55,927 bases of DNA from Sashavirus 536P12. Position numbers and translations under genes: made by a program. Position 1 is the first letter of the stretch. Each line of letters opens with the position of its first letter. Below, piece after piece: positions 1,000-55,927 of the stretch. The DNA is taken from the sequence record OZ035768.1. One strand, 5' to 3'. The notes beneath the pieces were generated by a model. The model was not told where the DNA came from. It did no database searches and saw only the letters and a list, made by a program, of their open reading frames with translations.

Positions 1000-1047
1000 A
1001 GGTCATTATAGGTTATTTTACTGTAATCCGTCAAGAATTATTTTAAA
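1000..1047 (-). promoter_or_regulatory. conserved sigma70-type promoter element (P1)
   Basis: plus-strand GTCAAGAATTATTTTAAA at 1030-1047 is the reverse complement of TTTAAAATAATTCTTGAC; -35 TTGACG, ~18-nt spacer, -10 TATAAT (1005-1010, minus strand); AT-rich UP-like segment. Confidence 0.7.
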
Positions 1048-2001: not shown

Positions 2002-2586
2002 TTACTCAGTGAAAAGTTTCACCAACAGTTTGTTAATGTCAGCATCATAAGCATCATAAGCAGCACGAGCAGCATAAGCATCAGCAGCACGAGCAGCACG
2101 AGCAGCACGAGCAGCACGAGCAGCACGAGCAGCATCATAAGCAGCACGAGCAGCATAAGCAGCAGCATAAGCAGCAGCACGAGCAGCACGAGCAGCATAA
2201 GCAGCATAAGCAGCAGCATAAGCAGCACGAGCAGCACGAGCAGCATCAGCAGCATCAGCAGCATCATAAGCAGCACGAGCAGCATAAGCAGCATAAGCAG
2301 CATTCTGTGATGGATTGTTAAGAAAATCCTGAATCAGATTAAAGTCATTCGTATAAGGTCGAATCAATTCGATATTCAACAAAGCACAATCGCAAGCGAA
2401 CCGAACGATTTTTTCTTTCGATAAGATTTTCCCGGCTAACCATAACAAGTCTGAAACGGTGTTTTCACCACCGATTAGACTAATAACTTCAACAGGTTCG
2501 TCAGTGTTGTTAGTCTGAATGATGAAACGTTTAAAACCTTCCTGACATGCGCCAAAATTTTTCAGTTCTTGTTTAGTGATTTTCAT
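2002..2586 (-). CDS. protein with N-terminal globular domain and C-terminal Ala-Ala-(Arg/Tyr/Asp) tripeptide repeat array
   Basis: 194-aa ORF; residues ~95-185 are AAY/AAR/AAD repeats encoded by a near-perfect 9-bp tandem DNA array; GAGGG SD upstream of ATG at 2586; driven by promoter P2. Confidence 0.6.
   Translation of the reverse strand: MKITKQELKNFGACQEGFKRFIIQTNNTDEPVEVISLIGGENTVSDLLWLAGKILSKEKIVRFACDCALLNIELIRPYTNDFNLIQDFLNNPSQNAAYAAYAARAAYDAADAADAARAARAAYAAAYAAYAARAARAAAYAAAYAARAAYDAARAARAARAARAARAADAYAARAAYDAYDADINKLLVKLFTE
2035..2303. repeat. tandem 9-bp (3-codon) repeat array (agcacgagc / agcataagc / agcatcagc), ~30 units
   Basis: directly visible periodicity in sequence 2035-2303; lies inside the 2002..2586 CDS. 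Confidence 0.9.
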
Positions 2587-2858: not shown

Positions 2859-2921
2859 TCTCTGTTACCACCAATCACCCGTGGTAAACTGTACAGAACA
2901 GTTACAAACGGACCGACAATC

Positions 2922-4725: not shown

Positions 4726-4760
4726 ATTCTTGACAAATTACATTATAAATGTTTGTAAAT
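4726..4760 (+). promoter_or_regulatory. promoter (partial copy of conserved element, + orientation)
   Basis: AATTCTTGACA with TTGACA at 4730-4735; -10 unclear (TGTAAAT near 4754-4760 or TATACT at 4787-4792); upstream of the strong AGGAG RBS of the gene at 4849. Confidence 0.4.
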
Positions 4761-9189: not shown

Positions 9190-9235
9190 ACTAAAGCATA
9201 ATCGCATGTTTGCAATCTGTCAAGAATTATTTTAA
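9190..9235 (-). promoter_or_regulatory. conserved promoter element (P4)
   Basis: GTCAAGAATTATTTTAA at 9219-9235; minus-strand -35 TTGACA, 17-nt spacer, -10 TATGCT. Confidence 0.65.
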
Positions 9236-11411: not shown

Positions 11412-11459
11412 GTTTGTAGGTTACACGTCCTTGTGTAATCCATCAAGAATTATTTTAAA
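11412..11459 (-). promoter_or_regulatory. conserved promoter element (P5, -35 variant TTGATG)
   Basis: ATCAAGAATTATTTTAAA at 11442-11459. Confidence 0.6.
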
Positions 11460-12554: not shown

Positions 12555-12602
12555 ACAAATGTTAGTGTTACTGCTTGCAATGTGTCAAGAATTATTTTAA
12601 AC
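12555..12602 (-). promoter_or_regulatory. conserved promoter element (P6)
   Basis: GTCAAGAATTATTTTAAAC at 12584-12602; minus-strand -35 TTGACA. Confidence 0.6.
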
Positions 12603-15805: not shown

Positions 15806-16189
15806 TTATTTAATGATTAATGTTGGTTGTAAGTCTTCTTCATACCAAGTCCAACCAATGCATGTACCATCTTCAGCATCAACATATGGTTTCAACCAAT
15901 CGATAAATTGTTCAATCTCACTATCATAATTTTTAATATCGCTACGACTAAAAATATATTGAGTATCGGTGAAATCAAATTTAGGACAACTATTTATTAC
16001 TTCCGGGTGATGATAAAAACTGCTACAACTACCAATAAAATTCCACCTGGGGAGACTGAAAAACTTATGTTGTGGTAGTTTCTCTGGTTCTTTTTCACCA
16101 CAGAACATGTGTGCAATAACAGCTTTCACATCCACAGGTACATCTGCTTTAATCTGACACTTCAATACTAATTCGGTATACATTCCCAT
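15806..16189 (-). CDS. hypothetical protein
   Basis: ORF 15806..16264 over-extends into promoter P7 (TTG start); likely start ATG 16189 preceded by GAGGGTG. Confidence 0.45.
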   Translation of the reverse strand: MGMYTELVLKCQIKADVPVDVKAVIAHMFCGEKEPEKLPQHKFFSLPRWNFIGSCSSFYHHPEVINSCPKFDFTDTQYIFSRSDIKNYDSEIEQFIDWLKPYVDAEDGTCIGWTWYEEDLQPTLIIK

Positions 16190-16229: not shown

Positions 16230-16277
16230 GTGATAAAGATACCCCACCGCTTGTAATCCGTCAAGAATTATTTTAAA
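16230..16277 (-). promoter_or_regulatory. conserved promoter element (P7)
   Basis: GTCAAGAATTATTTTAAA at 16260-16277; minus-strand -35 TTGACG, -10 TATCTT. Confidence 0.65.
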
Positions 16278-16560
16278 GGTACAGCTAATACAGAACGTGT
16301 ACTAACTGCACATAGTTCTACATAGGTTTCATGATTTTGAGTTGCAGCTAATACAGAACGTGTATTAGTAGATCATGGGTTCATAGATTTCGTCATGTTT
16401 ATTTTTTAACCAACCTCTCTCTATCTTATTCTTTTTATTATCTTTTTATAATAAACATGATAAACATAGATAAATAGAAGAGTAGTATAAGTAGTATAAG
16501 TTGCTGCAAGTAGGAGAGGTTTAAAAGGTATAGGGAGTCGCATACTTCCCATGAATCTAT
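16278..16560. repeat. iteron-rich AT-rich region A (candidate origin or regulatory hub)
   Basis: two copies of AGCTAATACAGAACGTGTA; a 69-bp block (16382-16450) ~97% identical to 55578-55646; inverted arms CATAGATTTCGTCATG / CATGAATCTATACG flank the AT-rich core. Confidence 0.7.
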
Positions 16561-16603
16561 ACGTAAAATAATTCTTGACGGATTACACCGACACAACTAC
16601 CCT
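16561..16603 (+). promoter_or_regulatory. conserved promoter element (P8, + orientation)
   Basis: AAAATAATTCTTGACGGATTACA with TTGACG at 16575-16580; divergent from P7 across region A. Confidence 0.6.
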
Positions 16604-16633
16604 GTGGTTAAGAAAACAAGAAGGGTTGAATGT

Positions 16634-17002
16634 ATGGATCCGAACATCAGAATTGCTACAGACGAATTCATTCGTCGCGCCCGTAAAATTCACGGTGATC
16701 GTTACGACTACTCATTCAGCATTGTTGAAGATAGTTCCAGCACCGTGGTTATTATTGACCGTGAAACTAACACAGTGTTTTTCCAGGTTGTCGCTGAACA
16801 TCTGGACGGTGTTGAACCGGTAACGACTGCTGTTGAACCGGTAACGACTGCTGTTGAACCGGTAACGACTGCTGTTGAACCGATCAAGAATCTTTCTGAG
16901 ATATTCGGTAACGTCGTAAACAGCGTGTATCACCAGTGCAATTATTCATCTGAAATGTTAGAATTTAGTCATGTTGAAACAATACGAGGACAATCCCCGT
17001 GA
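16634..17002 (+). CDS. hypothetical protein with tandem VEPVTTA heptad repeats
   Basis: ORF 16604 begins with GTG; likely start ATG 16634 after AAGGG; N-terminal EFIRRARKIHGDRYDYS resembles the repeats of the 25306..26217 protein. Confidence 0.5.
   Translation: MDPNIRIATDEFIRRARKIHGDRYDYSFSIVEDSSSTVVIIDRETNTVFFQVVAEHLDGVEPVTTAVEPVTTAVEPVTTAVEPIKNLSEIFGNVVNSVYHQCNYSSEMLEFSHVETIRGQSP
16811..16882. repeat. 21-bp tandem repeat x3.4 (gttgaaccggtaacgactgct)
   Basis: perfect direct repeats inside the CDS, in frame. Confidence 0.9.
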
Positions 17003-20560: not shown

Positions 20561-20942
20561 AGACACTATCACTTAATCGGTCGAAAGACGCCGGATAAAC
20601 GTAACCGGCACATAACAGATAAGAGCATTGAGTTGTTTAAAGTGGTGCTGCGACGATTATCATACATCTCAGTGCTCTTATCGTTGTGGTGAATTGCAGT
20701 TCTTAGAAACAACCAGAAGATAAGCGCCTGGCACCGCAACCCAAACACTCGCTGATAAGGAGGTGATCCTTATCTTGCTGGCGGGAAAGCCGCAAATCGT
20801 GGGTAAAGCATGTTGTGAAACATCCTGAACTGCGTGTCGTTTTACATAACTGGTTATTCACGTGTCACGCATAGGGGTATGTTGGGACGTCAGGTGTGGA
20901 TGACCAGTTATGTAAAACCCTCATTATCACCCAGAGCCATTT

Positions 20943-24479: not shown

Positions 24480-24526
24480 AGTTAAAGATACCTTAACAGG
24501 TGTAATTCGTCAAGAATTATTTTAAA
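24480..24526 (-). promoter_or_regulatory. conserved promoter element (P9)
   Basis: CGTCAAGAATTATTTTAAA at 24508-24526; minus-strand -35 TTGACG, -10 TATCTT. Confidence 0.65.
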
Positions 24527-24590
24527 TATCTTGCGTAATTTGTACAGAACTATTACTATCTAATCGTCTACTACATAAAAGGTAAAAACC

Positions 24591-25013: not shown

Positions 25014-25309
25014 TCGACTTCCTCTTGTGGAACGATAAGACAGACGGGGACGACCTGGACTGGGTTACACAAGGGGCGGCTGCACGTGGTATATCTGTTC
25101 CGAGTGTTGTACAGAAACGTCCTGAATTGCGACCTGATGCTATCTTTTACTGGAATGCTTATCTTGATTTGATAAATAGTGATTGGGTTGCTTGTGAGCG
25201 GTATGCACGGGTGTATAACGTTGATGTACAGTTCCTATGGAAATTATTGGTAGCATTGCGGTCTGCACGTGTTGTCGAGATGAAGAAAAATAAACATAAG
25301 CCCGGTTAG
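24591..25309 (+). CDS. tail assembly chaperone frameshift product (gpGT-like), -1 frameshift at A_AAA_AAC (25004-25010)
   Basis: slippery heptamer A AAA AAC just before the G stop (25011-25013); -1 frame is open from 25004 to 25309 (ORF 25025..25309). Confidence 0.5.
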
Positions 25310-25322
25310 TTCCGGGCTTTTT
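25299..25322. terminator. bidirectional terminator hairpin
   Basis: AAGCCCGGTTAGTTCCGGGCTT followed by a T-run, at the junction of convergent genes. Confidence 0.6.
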
Positions 25323-26217
25323 CATTTATGTAGTCGAGGATTGCGGGAGAATATTTAAACCACTCTGTAGCACCGTCAAAGCCTTTGAGACGCGCATTAA
25401 GTTCACGGAAGACCTTGTGTACCTCTTGTTCCAGTTTGTAAGCATCAGCGCCGTGTGGAAATGGATACGACACGAGTTTAACCACGGGGTGCGGAGTTCG
25501 TCGTTGTAGTTGTCGTAGTCGCTGTTTTAAGTCGTTTGTAACACCGACTTTAAGCAGAGTGGGACACTGTTTATCATCGGTTAACACGTAGAGTGTACCG
25601 GGTTCAAGTGGGTTGAAACCCGCTTGTGAACATTGTGGGCAAGCGTTTAAACAGCAATGGTTATTAGGAGTCTGTTCAAACACCCCATGCTCGGGACATA
25701 TTATTTTTACTCGAGTGAAATTATTAATATACTCCACCAGTGAGTAATCGTATTTGTTTCCGTGAATTTCACGAGCACGATTGACGAATTCTTCAGTAGT
25801 CAAGCGTTGTTGTTCAGACGACTGTTCCCGAGCACATTGTGGGCAACCTCTCCCGTGAACATGGTTGTTAGGAGTCTGTTCAAACACCCCATGCTCTGGG
25901 CATGTTATTTTTACTTTAGTATGAGCGCCTTTATGTTCCACCAACGAGTAATCGTATTTGTGTCCATGGAGTTCACGCGCCCGTGTGATGAATTCTTCTA
26001 CAGGTGATCGTTTTTGTTCTACCGCACACCATGGACACCCATGTTTCAAAGAAACATGATTATTAGGAATCTGTTCAAACACACCATGTTCTGGACAGGT
26101 GACCTTCACAGGAGTACACCAATTCACATACTCCACTAGCGAGTAATCGTATTTGTGCCCGTGAAGTTCACGGGCACGCGTGATAAACTCTTCTGTGGTT
26201 AAACGTTTCCTACTCAT
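25306..26217 (-). CDS. T5orf172 (GIY-YIG-like) domain protein with three N-terminal zinc-ribbon-like repeats (homing-endonuclease-like)
   Basis: 303 aa; three ~65-aa repeats (TTEEF..RARELHGHKYDYSLVEY...CPEHGVFEQ.PNNH...GCPxC); C-terminal LYVLTDD...LLKVGVTNDLKQRL matches the T5orf172 signature. Confidence 0.55.
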   Translation of the reverse strand: MSRKRLTTEEFITRARELHGHKYDYSLVEYVNWCTPVKVTCPEHGVFEQIPNNHVSLKHGCPWCAVEQKRSPVEEFITRARELHGHKYDYSLVEHKGAHTKVKITCPEHGVFEQTPNNHVHGRGCPQCAREQSSEQQRLTTEEFVNRAREIHGNKYDYSLVEYINNFTRVKIICPEHGVFEQTPNNHCCLNACPQCSQAGFNPLEPGTLYVLTDDKQCPTLLKVGVTNDLKQRLRQLQRRTPHPVVKLVSYPFPHGADAYKLEQEVHKVFRELNARLKGFDGATEWFKYSPAILDYINEKARN

Positions 26218-26398: not shown

Positions 26399-26452
26399 TT
26401 TGTAACCCTCCGTTGTTTTGTTGATTGTAGTTTACACACCATTGTGCAATCC

Positions 26453-26470
26453 GTCAAGAATTATTTTAAA
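26453..26470 (-). promoter_or_regulatory. conserved promoter element (P10)
   Basis: GTCAAGAATTATTTTAAA at 26453-26470; minus-strand -35 TTGACG. Confidence 0.65.
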
Positions 26471-26514
26471 CATTTGTCGCTTTTTAGACCCGTGTTAAAC
26501 TGTGTATATGCTTC

Positions 26515-44192: not shown

Positions 44193-44240
44193 TCGCTAAC
44201 TTTAAAAGGTGTTGTGTAATCTGTCAAGAATTATTTTACA
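44193..44240 (-). promoter_or_regulatory. conserved promoter element (P11)
   Basis: GTCAAGAATTATTTTACA at 44223-44240; minus-strand -35 TTGACA, -10 TAAAGT. Confidence 0.6.
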
Positions 44241-44255: not shown

Positions 44256-44303
44256 TGCAGATGTTAGAGGAATGAGTTGCAATACGTCAAGAACTATTTT
44301 AAA
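44256..44303 (-). promoter_or_regulatory. conserved promoter element (P12, tandem with P11)
   Basis: GTCAAGAACTATTTTAAA at 44286-44303; minus-strand -35 TTGACG. Confidence 0.55.
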
Positions 44304-47308: not shown

Positions 47309-49663
47309 ATGAAAGGGTTACTGAACCGTAAACAGTGGGTCATGTGGCGACTTGAGACAGTCGCCGATCGTCCAAAACCAACGAAAGTACCATACAGCCC
47401 GGTACACGGTTATAAAGCCAGTACCACTAACCCTAACGACTGGTCTGACTATCACACCGCGTTAGGTATGGCGCAAATGTACGGTATGTCTGGTGTTGGT
47501 TTTGTATTCACAGAAAATGACCCTTATTTCTTTATCGATATTGATAACTGTCTGGTAGATCAGGCAACAGCTACGTGGTCACCACTGGCGCATGAATTCG
47601 TAAACCGTTTTCCAAATGCTTACACTGAAGTCAGTCAGTCAGGAACAGGTTTGCATATCATCTGTGCTTATACCAGCATACCGGAAGGTTTTAACAGTCT
47701 GAACGACCAGAAAACCGGGCTGGAAATGTACTGGCGTGATCGTTTCGTCGCGATGACGCTCACGGGTAATGGTGATGTTGATATTGATTATACCCAGGGC
47801 ATTCATGATTCTATTGCCCGGTATGGTCGTATCCGTTCAGACCGTTCCGCACGCTGGACAACAGCACCTTGTGATGACTGGTCAGGTCCGGCAGACGATG
47901 ATGAACTGATTAAAATGGCGTTAAATTCGTCCAGTGCTGCTTCAGTATTTGGCAATAAAGCGTCATTTGCAGATCTGTGGAATGCAAACGTTGAACGTCT
48001 GTCTGTGTCATATCCTAGCGACCAGGGAAAAGACTACAATGCATCTGCCGCTGATGCTGCCCTGTGCTCACACCTTGCGTTCTGGACCGGGAAAGATTGC
48101 GAACGTATTGAACGATTGTTTAACCGTTCCGGGCTGGTTCGTGGTAAATGGACAGATCGTCAGGATTACCGTGAAAACACAATTCTGGGCGCTGTGGAAC
48201 GTTGTGATACGGTTTATCGTAGTCAACCGACGCTGACACCAGAACTGATGAAAGCAGTCACACCAGCGCCTACCATCGTTCCTAACGGTGGAACACCTGC
48301 GTACATGAGTGTGAAACCCGGTGAAGGTGCATATGGTTCAAACCATACTGTTAATGCATCCACTTTCGTTAATAACTATTATCCGAACAACACATTGATT
48401 TTCGTCCAGCAACAGCCGTACCGGTTCAACGGTCGCGTGTGGGAACGTGTGAGTGAAGATGAACTGAAACATCAGATATCTATGGCAATGCTCGCCAGCG
48501 AACCAAAAGCTGACGTAATTAACGGTACGTACAAGGTTTTGTCGTATTTATTCACACGCGCTGATCGTGAGCTTGGAACATGGCCAGGTGTTGATGTGTC
48601 ACACTACATTGTATGTCAGAACGGGATACTGGATGTACACACGGGTAAATGTGATGCACATAACCCGGATTTCTTTACGACCAGTATTTTACCGTATAGC
48701 TACGATCCGTTTGCCCGTGCGCCAGCATTTGAACAGTTTTTAAATACAACTCTGGAAGGTGATCAGGAACGTATTGCACTGTTGCAGGAATGGCTGGGTT
48801 ACATGCTTGTCAACTCATATGACTATCAGAAAGCGATGCTGTTGATTGGTGCACCACGTTCCGGTAAAGGTACGATTGGTCGCATCATTCAGGCACTGGT
48901 AGGTGATGAAGCGTATGCAGGGATCACACTAGAGGGTTTAGCTAGTGATGCGGTACTTGAAACTGTGTTGGATAAATCTGTGCTGTTTATTGGTGATGCT
49001 CACAGTGTGTCCGGGCCTGATCGCAACCGAATTCTGGACCGTTTCAAATCTATTACAGGTTGTGATGCGATTCCGGTTAATCGTAAATATAAAGGTGCAT
49101 GGAACGGTCGTTTACCGGGACGTATGACACTGGCTGCTAACAACATTCCGGCATTTGCTGATGATTCAGGTGCAATGGCTAACCGTTTGCTGATCCTGCC
49201 ATTCAACATTTCGTTCCTGGGTCGTGAAGATACCACTCTGGAAGCACGACTGATGAAAGAACTACCGGGGATCTGTAACTGGGCGATTGAAGGTTTACAA
49301 CGGTTACGTGCTAACGGACGATTTTCTGAACCAAAAGCAAGTCTGGAAGAACGTCAGGAAATTATGGATCAACAATCACCACTTAGAAGTTTTATCAGAG
49401 ATTGTTGCGAATTGGTATCTGATGGTGAGGTGCACACTGAAGAACTCTATGGTCGTTATCGTCTCTGGAAAACACAGGAAGGTGGTCCAGCAATGACTAA
49501 AACTGCATTTAGTCGGGCATTTAAATCCACCCTTCGTGGTAAAGTGAAAAAAGACGTCGTTAATATAAATAACGTTCGACTAAACGGTTTCAGGGGTATT
49601 CGTCTTCTCCCTTTTCAGTCAACAGCTAATGTAGTGCCTTTCCCACCTGCGAGTAACGGTTAG
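47309..49663 (+). CDS. primase-helicase (prim-pol N-terminal domain plus D5/SF3-type P-loop NTPase)
   Basis: 784 aa; prim-pol motifs FIDIDN and GLHIICAY; Walker A GAPRSGKGT. Confidence 0.75.
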   Translation: MKGLLNRKQWVMWRLETVADRPKPTKVPYSPVHGYKASTTNPNDWSDYHTALGMAQMYGMSGVGFVFTENDPYFFIDIDNCLVDQATATWSPLAHEFVNRFPNAYTEVSQSGTGLHIICAYTSIPEGFNSLNDQKTGLEMYWRDRFVAMTLTGNGDVDIDYTQGIHDSIARYGRIRSDRSARWTTAPCDDWSGPADDDELIKMALNSSSAASVFGNKASFADLWNANVERLSVSYPSDQGKDYNASAADAALCSHLAFWTGKDCERIERLFNRSGLVRGKWTDRQDYRENTILGAVERCDTVYRSQPTLTPELMKAVTPAPTIVPNGGTPAYMSVKPGEGAYGSNHTVNASTFVNNYYPNNTLIFVQQQPYRFNGRVWERVSEDELKHQISMAMLASEPKADVINGTYKVLSYLFTRADRELGTWPGVDVSHYIVCQNGILDVHTGKCDAHNPDFFTTSILPYSYDPFARAPAFEQFLNTTLEGDQERIALLQEWLGYMLVNSYDYQKAMLLIGAPRSGKGTIGRIIQALVGDEAYAGITLEGLASDAVLETVLDKSVLFIGDAHSVSGPDRNRILDRFKSITGCDAIPVNRKYKGAWNGRLPGRMTLAANNIPAFADDSGAMANRLLILPFNISFLGREDTTLEARLMKELPGICNWAIEGLQRLRANGRFSEPKASLEERQEIMDQQSPLRSFIRDCCELVSDGEVHTEELYGRYRLWKTQEGGPAMTKTAFSRAFKSTLRGKVKKDVVNINNVRLNGFRGIRLLPFQSTANVVPFPPASNG

Positions 49664-49681: not shown

Positions 49682-49723
49682 TAAAATAATTCTTGACGAA
49701 TTACAGAGGTGTGCGCTATAGTC
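49682..49723 (+). promoter_or_regulatory. conserved promoter element (P13, + orientation)
   Basis: TAAAATAATTCTTGACGAATTACA; -35 TTGACG 49693-49698, 18-nt spacer, -10 TATAGT 49717-49722. Confidence 0.7.
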
Positions 49724-51455: not shown

Positions 51456-51493
51456 AATAATTCTTGACAGATTACCAACCCTCCCCGATAATT
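51452..51493 (+). promoter_or_regulatory. conserved promoter element (P14, + orientation)
   Basis: TTAAAATAATTCTTGACAGATTACCA; -35 TTGACA 51464-51469, 17-nt spacer, -10 GATAAT 51487-51492. Confidence 0.7.
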
Positions 51494-54589: not shown

Positions 54590-55345
54590 TTATTGACCCA
54601 TCATATCTTTATACATCATCAAAACAACATCATCCGGCATATTGTCTACATCACAATGTGGGTTGTGTGATAACGCATACAGTCTGATTTTCTCCTTCAA
54701 ATCGCTGACATCGACTACAGGTGGTTCCACTCGTGTTACAGGTGGTTCCACTCGTGTTACAGGTGGTTCCACTCGTGTTACAGGTGGTTCACAAACCATC
54801 ACGTTAAACGGTGTACCGGTGCCTTCGTATTTTTCAAGCAAATCGACCATTACGTTTACACATTCCGGGATCCAGCCCCGGCGCAAACCATTCTGAATCC
54901 AACTGTCAGTAATTGTGTGTTCGTTTAAATTTCTGCGTAGCACATATCTTGCACATTCAAAATTACCGCACATCGCCTCAAACCGTGTCCACACGTCGTG
55001 ACCGTGAACAGCTTCCAGGATCTGTGAATCAACGTATCTGACACGTTGCCAGTATTTATTAGCAAAACGCCTGTGTGGTAATTTCTGACGCAGTTCGGTA
55101 ACCGGTATTGTGTGTTTAAGAACAATATTTTCGTCAGAATGTTGTACTGGCAAGGGTGACAGTGTGAAGTCAGTAATCTCTTCAAGAATAATACTGATCG
55201 TTTCATATTTAGGATGAAACCTACCGCTTAACCATTGGTTGTAACGACCAACAGTTACCTTAACACCCCGACGATTAAGGTATTCAACAGCGTTTTGTAC
55301 CCCGCCTTTTAAATCTATCAATTCGTCTAAAAGGTTCTTTTTCAT
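54590..55345 (-). CDS. HTH-like protein with C-terminal VEPPVTR tandem repeats (candidate regulator of adjacent operator-like repeats)
   Basis: ORF 54590..55381; likely start ATG 55345 with AAGGGTG SD; N-terminal LIDLKGGVQNAVEYLNRRGVKVTVGRYNQW resembles an HTH. Confidence 0.45.
   Translation of the reverse strand: MKKNLLDELIDLKGGVQNAVEYLNRRGVKVTVGRYNQWLSGRFHPKYETISIILEEITDFTLSPLPVQHSDENIVLKHTIPVTELRQKLPHRRFANKYWQRVRYVDSQILEAVHGHDVWTRFEAMCGNFECARYVLRRNLNEHTITDSWIQNGLRRGWIPECVNVMVDLLEKYEGTGTPFNVMVCEPPVTRVEPPVTRVEPPVTRVEPPVVDVSDLKEKIRLYALSHNPHCDVDNMPDDVVLMMYKDMMGQ
54718..54790. repeat. 21-bp tandem repeat x3.5 (caggtggttccactcgtgtta)
   Basis: perfect direct repeats inside the CDS, in frame. 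Confidence 0.9.
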
Positions 55346-55380
55346 TATCACACCCTTCTTGTTTGACCACGGGTAAATCA

Positions 55381-55927
55381 TAACGCGCGTTAGCAGCTAG
55401 TGCAAGACGTGCTTTATATGTTAGTGTGTTTACACCTAATGCATGTTGTGCATTAGCAGTTAGTGCAAGATGCACGTTGTGTATTAGCTGTTAGTGCACG
55501 TTGTGTATCTATGTTGGTACAGCTAATGCACGTTGTGAATTATATAATGCATGTTGTGCATTAAAGTTATACTTAACATAGATTTCGTCATGTTTACTTT
55601 TTAACCAACCCCTCTCTATCTTATTCTTTTTATTATCTTTTTATAGATAACATAGAAAACATAGATATAAAGAAGAAGTAGTATAGAAAGATAGAGATAG
55701 TGCATATAGTGTATTAGCTGTAAATAGAGCTAAAATAAAAGTCTGGGAGATACCTATTGTAATCTATGTTTTTATGCAAGTCTTTGAATTGATTGTGATT
55801 ATGGGCTACGTATTTATGTATGTAATCGAAAATTAGTGCATGTTGTGCACTAACTGTAAAATTAATACTAACGTTGTATTAGCTGTAAAACAGGGCGTGT
55901 GGACAACCCGTGGGTATCTGTGGGAAA
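55381..55927. repeat. iteron / operator-rich AT-rich region B (candidate origin, pac-proximal or regulatory region)
   Basis: multiple copies of TGCACGTTGTG / TATTAGCTG motifs; palindrome TTAGTGCA-N5-TGCACTAA (~55840-55860); 69-bp block 55578-55646 ~97% identical to 16382-16450; AT-rich core. Confidence 0.7.

What the first reader, a model, noticed from the sequence alone, without database searches (positions are those of the whole stretch)
16278..16560. Two iteron-rich AT-rich regions, bounded by inverted repeats and sharing a ~69-bp block
Region A (16278-16560) and region B (55381-55927) each combine repeated short motifs (AGCTAATACAGAACGTGTA in A; TGCACGTTGTG, TATTAGCTG and TTAGTGCA-N5-TGCACTAA in B), an AT-rich core and flanking inverted arms (CATAGATT... 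/ ...AATCTATG). The block 16382-16450 is ~97% identical to 55578-55646. Iterons, an AT-rich unwinding element and inverted repeats together are the classic signature of replication origins; region B lies at the window end just before TerS, so it could also hold a pac or terminal element. The two ~180-bp inverted-repeat-bounded modules could alternatively be copies of a small mobile element.
Basis: seen in the sequence. Interest (0 to 1): 0.65.

Follow-up and report, generated by a model that had tools for sequence, protein, structure and literature searches.

The report
Twin origin-like binding-site arrays
Two non-coding stretches of this 9NA-like phage genome hold clusters of 19-bp palindromic sites, apparently bound by the phage's own helix-turn-helix protein, next to the two most easily melted AT-rich segments of the genome; this looks most like replication origins, but nobody has tested it.

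Summary
The window is a 9NA-like siphovirus (Nonanavirus/Sashavirus).

Region A (16265-16575) and region B (55346-55927, continuing into 1-29) share three things.
- **Sites:** a 19-bp dyad site, TARTRCA-N5-TGYAYTA. There are 2 copies in A and 9 in B, and only one weak match anywhere else in the genome.
- **AT-rich block:** about 110 bp, with a 67/69-identical core. The two blocks are the two least stable 100-bp duplex segments of the genome.
- **Synteny:** the layout is conserved in E. coli, Salmonella and Klebsiella relatives.

Across relatives the sites are replaced wholesale (W, L, 9NA and S/C types), in step with the N-terminal XRE-type HTH domain of the orphan 251-aa gene beside B. That gene is therefore the likely binder. 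Sasha is an exception: its A sites do not match its protein, so the A sites seem dispensable.

The strongest inverted repeat in A (24 bp, perfect) is simply two back-to-back copies of a promoter family found about 14-15 times in the genome.

Best reading (about 0.42): iteron-plus-unwinding-element replication origins, with B primary and A auxiliary. Main rival (about 0.33): an early/late transcription control region. A pac site is unlikely and a mobile element is rejected. Function is inferred, not shown.

The parts
16236..16285 (-). Leftward early promoter of region A. It has a -35 TTGACG (16264-16259), a 17-nt spacer, a -10 TATCTT (16241-16236) and an AT-rich upstream element. It forms the left arm of the 24-bp perfect inverted repeat (16252-16275).
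   Evidence: Promoter scan. Member of a repeated promoter family TTTAAAATAATTCTTGACRGATTACA: 15 matches to the 16-nt core at up to 3 mismatches, against 0.9 expected, about 14 of them with the full upstream element.
16286..16304 (.). Site A1, the 19-bp dyad TAATACA-GAACG-TGTACTA. An AGCT extension lies on its left.
   Evidence: The core is flipped in PDP46.
16349..16367 (.). Site A2, the 19-bp dyad TAATACA-GAACG-TGTATTA, 63 bp from A1.
16382..16520 (.). AT-rich block A. The left half is pyrimidine-rich (about 16395-16447, with two tandem 11-mers TCTTTTTATWA). At about 16448 it switches to a purine-rich half with short tandem units (ATAAACATAG, AGTAGTATA). It is the least stable 100-bp window of the genome.
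16564..16603 (+). Rightward early-type promoter, the right arm of the 24-bp inverted repeat. It has a -35 TTGACG (16575-16580), a 17-nt spacer and a -10 TACCCT (16598-16603), and lies ahead of gene 16634-17002. 9NA, Sasha and Carvaje lack both this promoter and that gene.
54593..55345 (-). Gene for the putative site-binding protein (251 aa). It has a variable N-terminal XRE-type HTH, a conserved second HTH-like domain, a VEPPVTR heptad linker and a conserved acidic C-terminus.
55377..55405 (-). Predicted promoter of the 251-aa gene: TTGCAC, 17 nt, TATGAT on the minus strand. Its -35 (55405-55400) lies inside site B1.
   Evidence: Read directly from the sequence. It is kept in relatives that have lost one 63-bp site unit. 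The consensus scan did not list it.
55398..55563 (.). Left array of six dyad sites: B1 55398-55416, B2 55437-55455, B3 55468-55486, B4 55492-55510, B5 55524-55542 and B6 55545-55563.
   Evidence: The array varies in copy number, by a 63-bp unit, among relatives.
55577..55695 (.). AT-rich block B, with a pyrimidine-rich half, a switch at about 55648, then a purine-rich half with AACATAGAW 9-mers. It ties with block A as the least stable 100-bp window of the genome.
55698..55716 (.). Site B7, directly right of the block. The block in B is therefore flanked by sites on both sides.
   Evidence: In BDX09P1 this site changed type together with the left array, while the block stayed similar to the window's (143/158 matched).
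55834..55881 (.). Sites B8 (55834-55852) and B9 (55863-55881). B9 ends 76 nt before the terS ATG at window position 30.

Best explanation
A and B are two paralogous cis-acting loci. At each, the phage's own 251-aa tandem-HTH protein (gene 54593-55345, minus strand) binds arrays of 19-bp dyad sites next to a conserved AT-rich block of about 110 bp.

Proposed mechanism, modelled on iteron origins:
1. The protein is made from a promoter whose -35 lies inside site B1, so it limits its own synthesis.
2. Dimers fill the six sites left of block B and the one to its right. This bends or wraps the DNA and helps the very unstable block to melt.
3. The block is pyrimidine-rich on one side and purine-rich on the other, with tandem 9-11-mers.
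4. The conserved C-terminal part of the protein then recruits the phage replication proteins. These are the P4-family primase-polymerase/helicase (47309-49663), the Enc34-type SSB and PolA.

B would be the main origin. A has two sites and no site right of its block, so it would be an auxiliary origin or enhancer.

Shown here: the sites, the blocks, their exclusivity, their stability rank, their synteny, and the co-variation with the protein's N-terminal domain. Inferred: binding, melting, recruitment and any role in replication.
For: **The sites are real and local.**
- They are confined to A and B: 9 of 9 at up to 1 mismatch, 11 of 12 at up to 2.
- No other non-coding repeat cluster exists in the genome.

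**The blocks look like unwinding elements.**
- They are the two least stable duplex windows, about 4.5 sd below the genome mean.
- They carry tandem 9-11-mers and a pyrimidine-to-purine strand switch, kept in all relatives.
- All five exact ACATAGAT 8-mers of the genome lie in A or B.

**The binder can be identified.**
- The central domain weakly matches the same fold.

**Sites and protein change together.**
- Window type: TAATRCA-N5-TGYATTA.
- L017 and BDX09P1: TAATMCTRT-N-AYAGKATTA.
- 9NA, L018, L019 and L020: TAACAC-N3-GTGTTA plus a CTGAAAC tail.
- Carvaje: ATCTGGTAAGCYGWAAC.
- SP069 has two HTH ORFs and both site types.
- In 9NA, Carvaje, SP069 and the window lineage, the distant locus A carries the same type as B.
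- In BDX09P1 the sites on both sides of block B changed type, while the block stayed similar to the window's (143/158 matched).

**Parallels with lambda ori (PMC7466680).**
- Its iterons are 19-bp imperfect inverted repeats next to an AT-rich tract.
- Iteron number varies among relatives (4 versus 6). Here one 63-bp unit is present or absent.

**The gene looks indispensable.** It is present in all full-length 9NA-like genomes found.
Against: - No experiment or coverage data shows replication starting here. GC skew follows transcription and says nothing.
- XRE-type HTH proteins are mostly transcription regulators. The best fold matches are autorepressors.
- The protein gene is not in the replication gene cluster. 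It is a single divergent gene right before terS, where late-gene regulators often sit (general knowledge).
- Both loci have the same orientation and both precede virion-gene operons. They also share -10-like AATCTATGAT elements and an ACCCGTGG leader motif, which fits promoter regions.
- P4-family primase-helicases often recognise their origin themselves (general knowledge).
- No DnaA boxes lie in A or B.
- No homologue of the protein is found on plasmids.
- Sasha has window-type protein and B sites but S-type sites in A. Locus A cannot be an essential target of this protein.
Confidence: 0.42

Rival explanations
1. Transcription control regions. The 251-aa protein would be a Cro/CI/Aca-like regulator that represses its own promoter. 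At the two loci it would switch between leftward early and rightward virion-gene transcription. The AT-rich block would serve as bent or upstream-element DNA, or would hold activator-dependent promoters. This would resemble the phi29 p4 early/late control region (from memory).
For: - The fold is XRE-type HTH, and the best matches are phage and anti-CRISPR autorepressors.
- Site B1 overlaps the predicted -35 of the protein's own promoter.
- Site A1 is centred near -66 of the leftward early promoter and abuts its upstream element.
- Site B7, or its counterpart, lies about 68 bp upstream of a conserved -10-like AATCTATGAT in the window, 9NA, L020 and Carvaje.
- B8 and B9 lie just before terS.
- Both loci sit in divergent intergenic regions ahead of virion-gene operons, in the same orientation.
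- The gene sits where late regulators often lie.
Against: - Sites occur at only two of roughly 15 promoter regions, so this is not a general early/late switch.
- A block of about 110 bp that is the genome's stability minimum, with tandem 9-11-mers, conserved across three host genera and less variable than the sites around it (10% against 24% variable columns), is more than a promoter needs.
- Consensus scans find no more sigma-70-like sites in A or B than shuffled sequence gives.
- Nine sites is many for an operator region.
- The mismatch in Sasha shows that control at A is dispensable.
Confidence: 0.33
2. Packaging signal. Region B would hold the pac recognition and cleavage region for headful packaging, with the repeats as terminase-binding sites.
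For: - B lies directly upstream of terS.
- 9NA packages by a pac-directed headful mechanism.
- Several related GenBank records are opened inside this region.
Against: - Site type follows the N-terminal domain of the HTH protein.
- The record starts differ between phages and look conventional.
- The paper that mapped the 9NA pac site (Zeng et al. 2019) could not be read here.
Confidence: 0.05
3. Two copies of a small non-autonomous mobile element (MITE-like), each about 180 bp and bounded by inverted repeats.
For: - A 69-bp core is 97% identical between the two loci.
- Short inverted arms CATAGATT/AATCTATG flank block B.
Against: - There are only two copies, both at the same syntenic positions in E. 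coli, Salmonella and Klebsiella phages.
- The arms are 8 bp, imperfect in A, and belong to the ACATAGAT repeat family.
- No target-site duplication is apparent in the sequence.
- The block's first 20-mer is found only in 9NA-like viral contigs, and a 31-mer from the block has no exact match in 185,579 bacterial and archaeal genomes.
- The high identity is better explained by gene conversion. A resembles its own B (86%) more than Sasha's A (73%).
Confidence: 0.01
4. Nothing special: ordinary promoter clusters and AT-rich spacer DNA.
For: The 24-bp perfect inverted repeat of A is indeed two ordinary early promoters.
Against: The promoter family is absent from B. The dyad sites, the block, their exclusivity and their co-variation with a DNA-binding domain are not features of ordinary promoters.
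Confidence: 0.04

Closest known systems
Lambda-type origin with O protein (PMC7466680; the domain-swap genetics are from memory)
   Same: - Several 19-bp imperfect inverted-repeat sites sit next to an AT-rich tract.
- Site number varies among related phages.
- A variable N-terminal DNA-binding part co-varies with the sites, while the rest of the protein is conserved.
   Different: - Lambda's origin lies inside the O gene, with a single copy and sites on one side only.
- O is not an XRE-type HTH protein.
- Here the sites are intergenic, flank the block on both sides in B, and there are two loci.
SPP1 oriL/oriR with G38P, P4 ori/crr with the alpha protein, and R6K gamma versus alpha/beta origins (all from memory)
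   Same: Two distant loci on one replicon carry the same initiator-binding repeats. One is rich in sites. The other is poorer and accessory, or acts through looping. SPP1 is likewise a pac-type siphovirus.
   Different: The initiators belong to unrelated families. In P4 the primase-helicase itself binds the repeats. Nothing here shows looping or a requirement for A.
SaPI replication origins (from memory; Ubeda et al. 2012 is listed in the references of PMC7145576) and plasmid iteron origins with repeated AT-rich unwinding elements (PMC4081077, seen)
   Same: - Two sets of element-specific repeats flank an AT-rich region.
- Specificity pairs with the element's own initiator.
- The AT-rich part contains short tandem repeats.
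   Different: The SaPI initiator is itself the helicase, and plasmid Rep proteins use winged-helix domains. Here the putative binder has XRE-type HTH domains and no enzymatic domain.
Phage and anti-CRISPR XRE-type autorepressors (Aca7, Aca1, Aca2, Cro, P22 c2) and the phi29 p4 early/late control region (p4 from memory)
   Same: - The fold of the N-terminal domain matches.
- The sites are dyad-symmetric.
- One site overlaps the protein's own predicted promoter.
- The setting is divergent early and late transcription units around bent AT-rich DNA.
   Different: - Those proteins are small and single-domain, with one to four sites.
- This protein has two HTH-like domains (three in Carvaje), a repeat linker and a conserved acidic tail.
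- It has 11 sites at two loci, each tied to a conserved 110-bp stability minimum.

Membership tests
Iteron-type replication origin | A cluster of repeated initiator-binding sites | tested here: met
   There are 2 + 9 dyad sites, exclusive to A and B, and no other non-coding repeat cluster. Binding itself is inferred from co-variation.
Iteron-type replication origin | An adjacent AT-rich DNA unwinding element | tested here: met
   The blocks are the two least stable 100-bp windows of the genome, and they contain tandem 9-11-mers. Actual unwinding was not tested.
Iteron-type replication origin | A cognate sequence-specific initiator encoded nearby, with matching specificity | tested here: inconclusive
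   An adjacent HTH protein co-varies with the sites in four to five specificity types. Nothing shows it is an initiator. Sasha's locus A is mismatched.
Iteron-type replication origin | Replication starts there, or the locus supports autonomous replication | not testable with these tools
   This needs marker-frequency analysis, 2D gels or a plasmid replication assay.
Iteron-type replication origin | Host initiator boxes (DnaA). These are optional for phage origins. | tested here: not met
   No TTATNCACA lies in A or B.
Cro/CI-type operator region | An XRE-type HTH regulator | tested here: met
Cro/CI-type operator region | Dyad operators overlapping core promoter elements | tested here: inconclusive
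   B1 overlaps the predicted -35 of the protein's own promoter. The other sites do not overlap confident promoters.
Cro/CI-type operator region | Part of a lysogeny/immunity module (integrase, a repressor/anti-repressor pair) | tested here: not met
   No such genes appear in the stretches of relatives' annotation that were read. 9NA is described as virulent, with no lysogeny genes identified.
pac site | Lies in or next to terS and is unique in the genome | tested here: not met
   B is next to terS, but the same element recurs at A.
pac site | Terminase cuts there | not testable with these tools
   No reads or restriction data are available. The mapping paper is not held.
MITE-like mobile element | Terminal inverted repeats, a target-site duplication, and scattered non-syntenic copies | tested here: not met
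   There are two syntenic copies only. The arms are 8 bp and imperfect in A. A 31-mer from the block has no exact match in bacterial genomes.
Structured RNA | A match to a known family, or a stable conserved fold | tested here: not met
   Rfam gives no hit. Fold z-scores are -3.0, -0.1, -1.6 and -1.5 for the four strands.

The most novel reading that the evidence does not exclude
The 9NA-like phages use a previously unrecognised kind of replication initiator. It is an orphan protein built from tandem XRE-type HTH domains, whose N-terminal domain and cognate 19-bp sites are exchanged between phages as a specificity cassette. It works on two paralogous origins (B main, A auxiliary) that are kept similar by gene conversion.
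Probability: 0.35. Interest if true: 0.65.

Novelty: new variant of a known kind. Interest (0 to 1): 0.5.

Why it matters
The molecular biology of 9NA-like phages is largely unstudied. They are nevertheless being isolated for biocontrol and for targeting plasmid-bearing bacteria.

This analysis gives a concrete and cheap set of hypotheses to test:
- a named gene;
- eleven mapped sites;
- two candidate unwinding elements;
- natural specificity swaps (W, L, 9NA and S/C types) that act as ready-made controls.

If these are origins, they would add a new initiator architecture to the iteron paradigm. They would also supply parts for engineering or replicon-typing these phages. If they are a transcription switch, they define the early/late control node of the group. 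In either case, pairing a variable HTH domain with its variable sites shows modular co-evolution of a protein and its DNA targets.

Tried and rejected
- **RNA element.** Rfam at gathering thresholds found nothing in the whole window. Folding the block gave only one marginal z-score, and the strands and copies disagreed. An RNA element is not supported.
- **GC skew.** It follows gene orientation and does not mark an origin.
- **DnaA boxes.** None in A or B.
- **Naming the 251-aa protein.** Pfam, NCBIfam and PDB sequence searches gave nothing. PHROGs gave only an unknown-function family. An exhaustive profile search of 1.84 billion proteins found 12 hits, the full-length ones being relatives from the same narrow family.
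- **Plasmids.** A tblastn search found no homologue.
- **Promoter scans.** Consensus scans of A and B found no more sites than shuffled sequence, so promoter arguments rest on reading the sequence by eye.
- **Flanking genes as paralogues.** The two genes flanking A and B share only the heptad-repeat linker.
- **ACCCGTGG motif.** A loose genome-wide search was too noisy to use.
- **Literature.** No held paper describes these elements. Zeng et al. 2019 (J Virol, 9NA-like packaging and genomics) and Ubeda et al. 2012 could not be read.
- **Mobile element.** Rejected.

Full report
**What the window is.** The window is a 9NA-like siphovirus. Segments around both regions are 94-98% identical to Escherichia phages PDP46, AVIO78A and KarinMuster_Bas82, and related to Salmonella phages Sasha, Sergei, Solent and 9NA.
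- Region A lies between a leftward cassette of small genes (ending 15806-16189) and the rightward head genes. The first rightward gene is 16634-17002, followed by an XkdF-like protease, a structural protein and the major capsid protein.
- Region B lies between a single leftward gene (54593-55345) and terS, which starts at window position 30. B therefore runs across the window's ends.

**Checking the observation.**
- The shared block is 16382-16450 versus 55577-55645, one base off the stated coordinates. Identity is 67/69, and weaker similarity continues for about 40 bases.
- The separate short motifs in A and B are fragments of one 19-bp dyad site, TARTRCA-N5-TGYAYTA, often extended by AGCT(G).
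- At up to 1 mismatch the window has 9 such sites against 0.33 expected, all in A or B.
- At up to 2 mismatches there are 12 against 3.2 expected: 2 in A, 9 in B and one inside a tail gene.
- The AT-rich cores are the two least stable 100-bp duplex windows of the whole genome: -103.3 kcal/mol each, against a mean of -133.2 with sd 6.7.
- Each core is pyrimidine-rich on the left and purine-rich on the right, and carries tandem 9-11-mers.
- No other non-coding repeat cluster exists in the genome.

**What the big inverted repeat in A is.** Region A is bracketed by a perfect 24-bp inverted repeat (16252-16275 and 16564-16587).
- It is two back-to-back copies of a promoter family, TTTAAAATAATTCTTGACRGATTACA.
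- The 16-nt core matches 15 times at up to 3 mismatches, against 0.9 expected. About 14 of these carry the full upstream element.
- Each copy lies roughly 60 nt ahead of a ribosome-binding site and a start codon.
- These look like early sigma-70 promoters driving the small-gene cassettes interspersed among the virion genes.
- None lies in region B. To that extent the 'ordinary promoters' reading is right for the outer arms of A, but not for the sites or the block.

**Comparison with relatives.** A and B are syntenic in E. coli, Salmonella and Klebsiella phages of this group. An alignment of seven A regions shows a conserved frame and a conserved block, while the two sites are replaced wholesale from phage to phage. 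The site types are:
- **W type** (window, PDP46, Bas82, AVIO78A, PJ16, Sasha's B): TAATRCA-N5-TGYATTA.
- **L type** (L017, BDX09P1): TAATMCTRT-N-AYAGKATTA.
- **9NA type** (9NA, L018, L019, L020): TAACAC-N3-GTGTTA with a CTGAAAC tail.
- **S/C type** (SP069, Carvaje): ATCTGGTAAGCYGWAAC-like.

**The likely binder.** The gene beside B encodes an orphan protein.
- Only 11 relatives turned up in 5.8 billion clustered proteins, and 12 in an exhaustive profile search of 1.84 billion representatives.
- Wherever its surroundings could be read, it sits in a 9NA-like phage context. Where that side of the contig is present, it faces terS across 500-600 bp.
- Its first 60 or so residues diverge into the same types as the sites, while the rest is highly conserved.
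- The central domain repeats the same sequence pattern and weakly matches the same fold. It is duplicated in Carvaje.

**The most telling comparisons.**
- L017 and BDX09P1 have a protein almost identical to the window's except for the N-terminal domain, and their B-left sites are L type. In BDX09P1 the site just right of the block is L type too, although the block between them stays similar to the window's (143/158 matched).
- 9NA and Carvaje carry their own site type at both A and B.
- SP069 has a stand-alone 9NA-type HTH ORF plus a full-length S-type gene, and both site types at both loci.

I take this as strong indirect evidence (about 0.85) that this protein binds the sites through its N-terminal domain.

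**Exceptions.**
- Sasha has a W-type protein and W-type B sites, but S-type sites in A. Its A region is nearly identical to SP069's.
- In BDX09P1, A and the two sites next to terS stay W-like.
- The A sites are therefore dispensable or tolerant of mismatch.

**Relationship between A and B.** The two loci are old paralogues.
- In the E. coli phages A is closer to its own B (117/136 matched) than to Sasha's A (117/161). This indicates gene conversion between the loci.
- The array in B varies by a 63-bp unit among close relatives.
- The 5-bp core of a site can flip orientation between strains.

**What the loci do.** The facts fit an iteron origin:
- repeated dyad sites for a phage-specific protein;
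- sites on both sides of the genome's weakest duplex segment;
- tandem AT-rich short repeats;
- a strand-composition switch of the kind expected at a bidirectional start;
- a neighbouring, probably self-repressed, binder gene, whose predicted promoter TTGCAC-17-TATGAT has its -35 inside B1;
- a conserved non-DNA-binding tail that could recruit the phage's P4-family primase-helicase, SSB and polymerase.

Lambda's origin likewise has 19-bp imperfect inverted-repeat iterons beside an AT-rich tract, with iteron number varying among relatives. Two-locus arrangements are known from SPP1, P4 and R6K (from memory).

**The case against an origin.**
- XRE-type HTH proteins are usually transcription regulators.
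- The gene lies outside the replication cluster, right before the virion genes.
- Both loci have the same orientation ahead of virion-gene operons.
- Conserved -10-like AATCTATGAT elements sit about 68 bp from site B7 or its counterparts.
- An ACCCGTGG motif recurs in the leaders of terS, terL and other genes.

An early/late transcription control region is therefore a serious rival. The two roles could also coexist.

**Estimates.** Origin 0.42, transcription control 0.33, pac 0.05, ordinary promoters only 0.04, mobile element 0.01. The remainder is for functions not considered.

**Novelty.** No paper I could read describes these elements or this protein. The one paper most likely to mention them, Zeng et al. 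2019, is not held, so prior description cannot be excluded. The architecture is a known kind (sites plus an AT-rich element). The tandem-XRE binder, the duplicated locus and the swappable specificity cassette make it a new variant.

Noticed in passing
window 1022-1037, 2833-2848, 4727-4742, 9211-9226, 11434-11449, 12576-12591, 16252-16267, 16572-16587, 24501-24516, 26445-26460, 44215-44230, 44278-44293, 49690-49705, 51461-51476: A highly uniform promoter family, TTTAAAATAATTCTTGACRGATTACA (upstream element plus -35). Most copies are on the minus strand, each about 60 nt ahead of the first gene of a small-gene cassette set among the plus-strand virion genes. Conservation beyond the -35 (GATTACA) is unusual for plain sigma-70 promoters.
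   Followed up: partly
window 16810-16882 and 54716-54790: The two genes that point away from A and B each carry a perfect 21-bp tandem repeat (3.5 copies). The repeats encode similar heptads, VEPVTTA and VEPPVTR. The proteins are otherwise unrelated, and repeat number varies among relatives.
   Followed up: partly
window 16286-16304; L001 4487-4505; L010 12755-12773: The 5-bp centre of a dyad site is reverse-complemented between strains (GAACG versus CGTTC) while the arms stay the same. The palindrome core has inverted, perhaps by template switching at the hairpin.
   Followed up: partly
window 55906-55916, 2877-2887, 16600-16610, 20795-20805, 26488-26498, 55364-55374 (minus strand): An ACCCGTGG(K)WA-like motif lies about 15-40 nt upstream of the start codons of terS, terL, the 16634 gene, the 20834 gene, the tape-measure gene and the HTH-protein gene. 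It could be a leader or late-promoter element.
   Followed up: partly
L026 1134-1343 (Salmonella phage SP069): A 69-aa ORF encodes only a 9NA-type N-terminal HTH domain, directly upstream of the full-length S-type gene. It is either a recombination remnant or a stand-alone competitor for 9NA-type sites.
   Followed up: partly
L024 597-1532 (Klebsiella phage Carvaje): The Carvaje homologue (311 aa) has its conserved central HTH-like domain duplicated in tandem.
   Followed up: no
window 2023-2328 and 25646-26207: There are long coding tandem repeats. One is a run of about 30 copies of a 9-nt unit in the minus-strand gene 2002-2586. The other is three units of about 200 bp in the minus-strand gene 25306-26217.
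   Followed up: no
L007 and L008 versus window 55383-55445: Two metagenomic relatives lack exactly one 63-bp unit of the left site array in B, leaving one or two sites fewer. The predicted promoter of the HTH gene is rebuilt from the next unit.
   Followed up: partly
window 2890-2906: A 17-bp perfect-armed palindrome, AACTGT-ACAGA-ACAGTT, lies just upstream of terL. A similar TGTACAGAAC lies at 24546, upstream of the 24591 gene. It is not the A/B site type.
   Followed up: no
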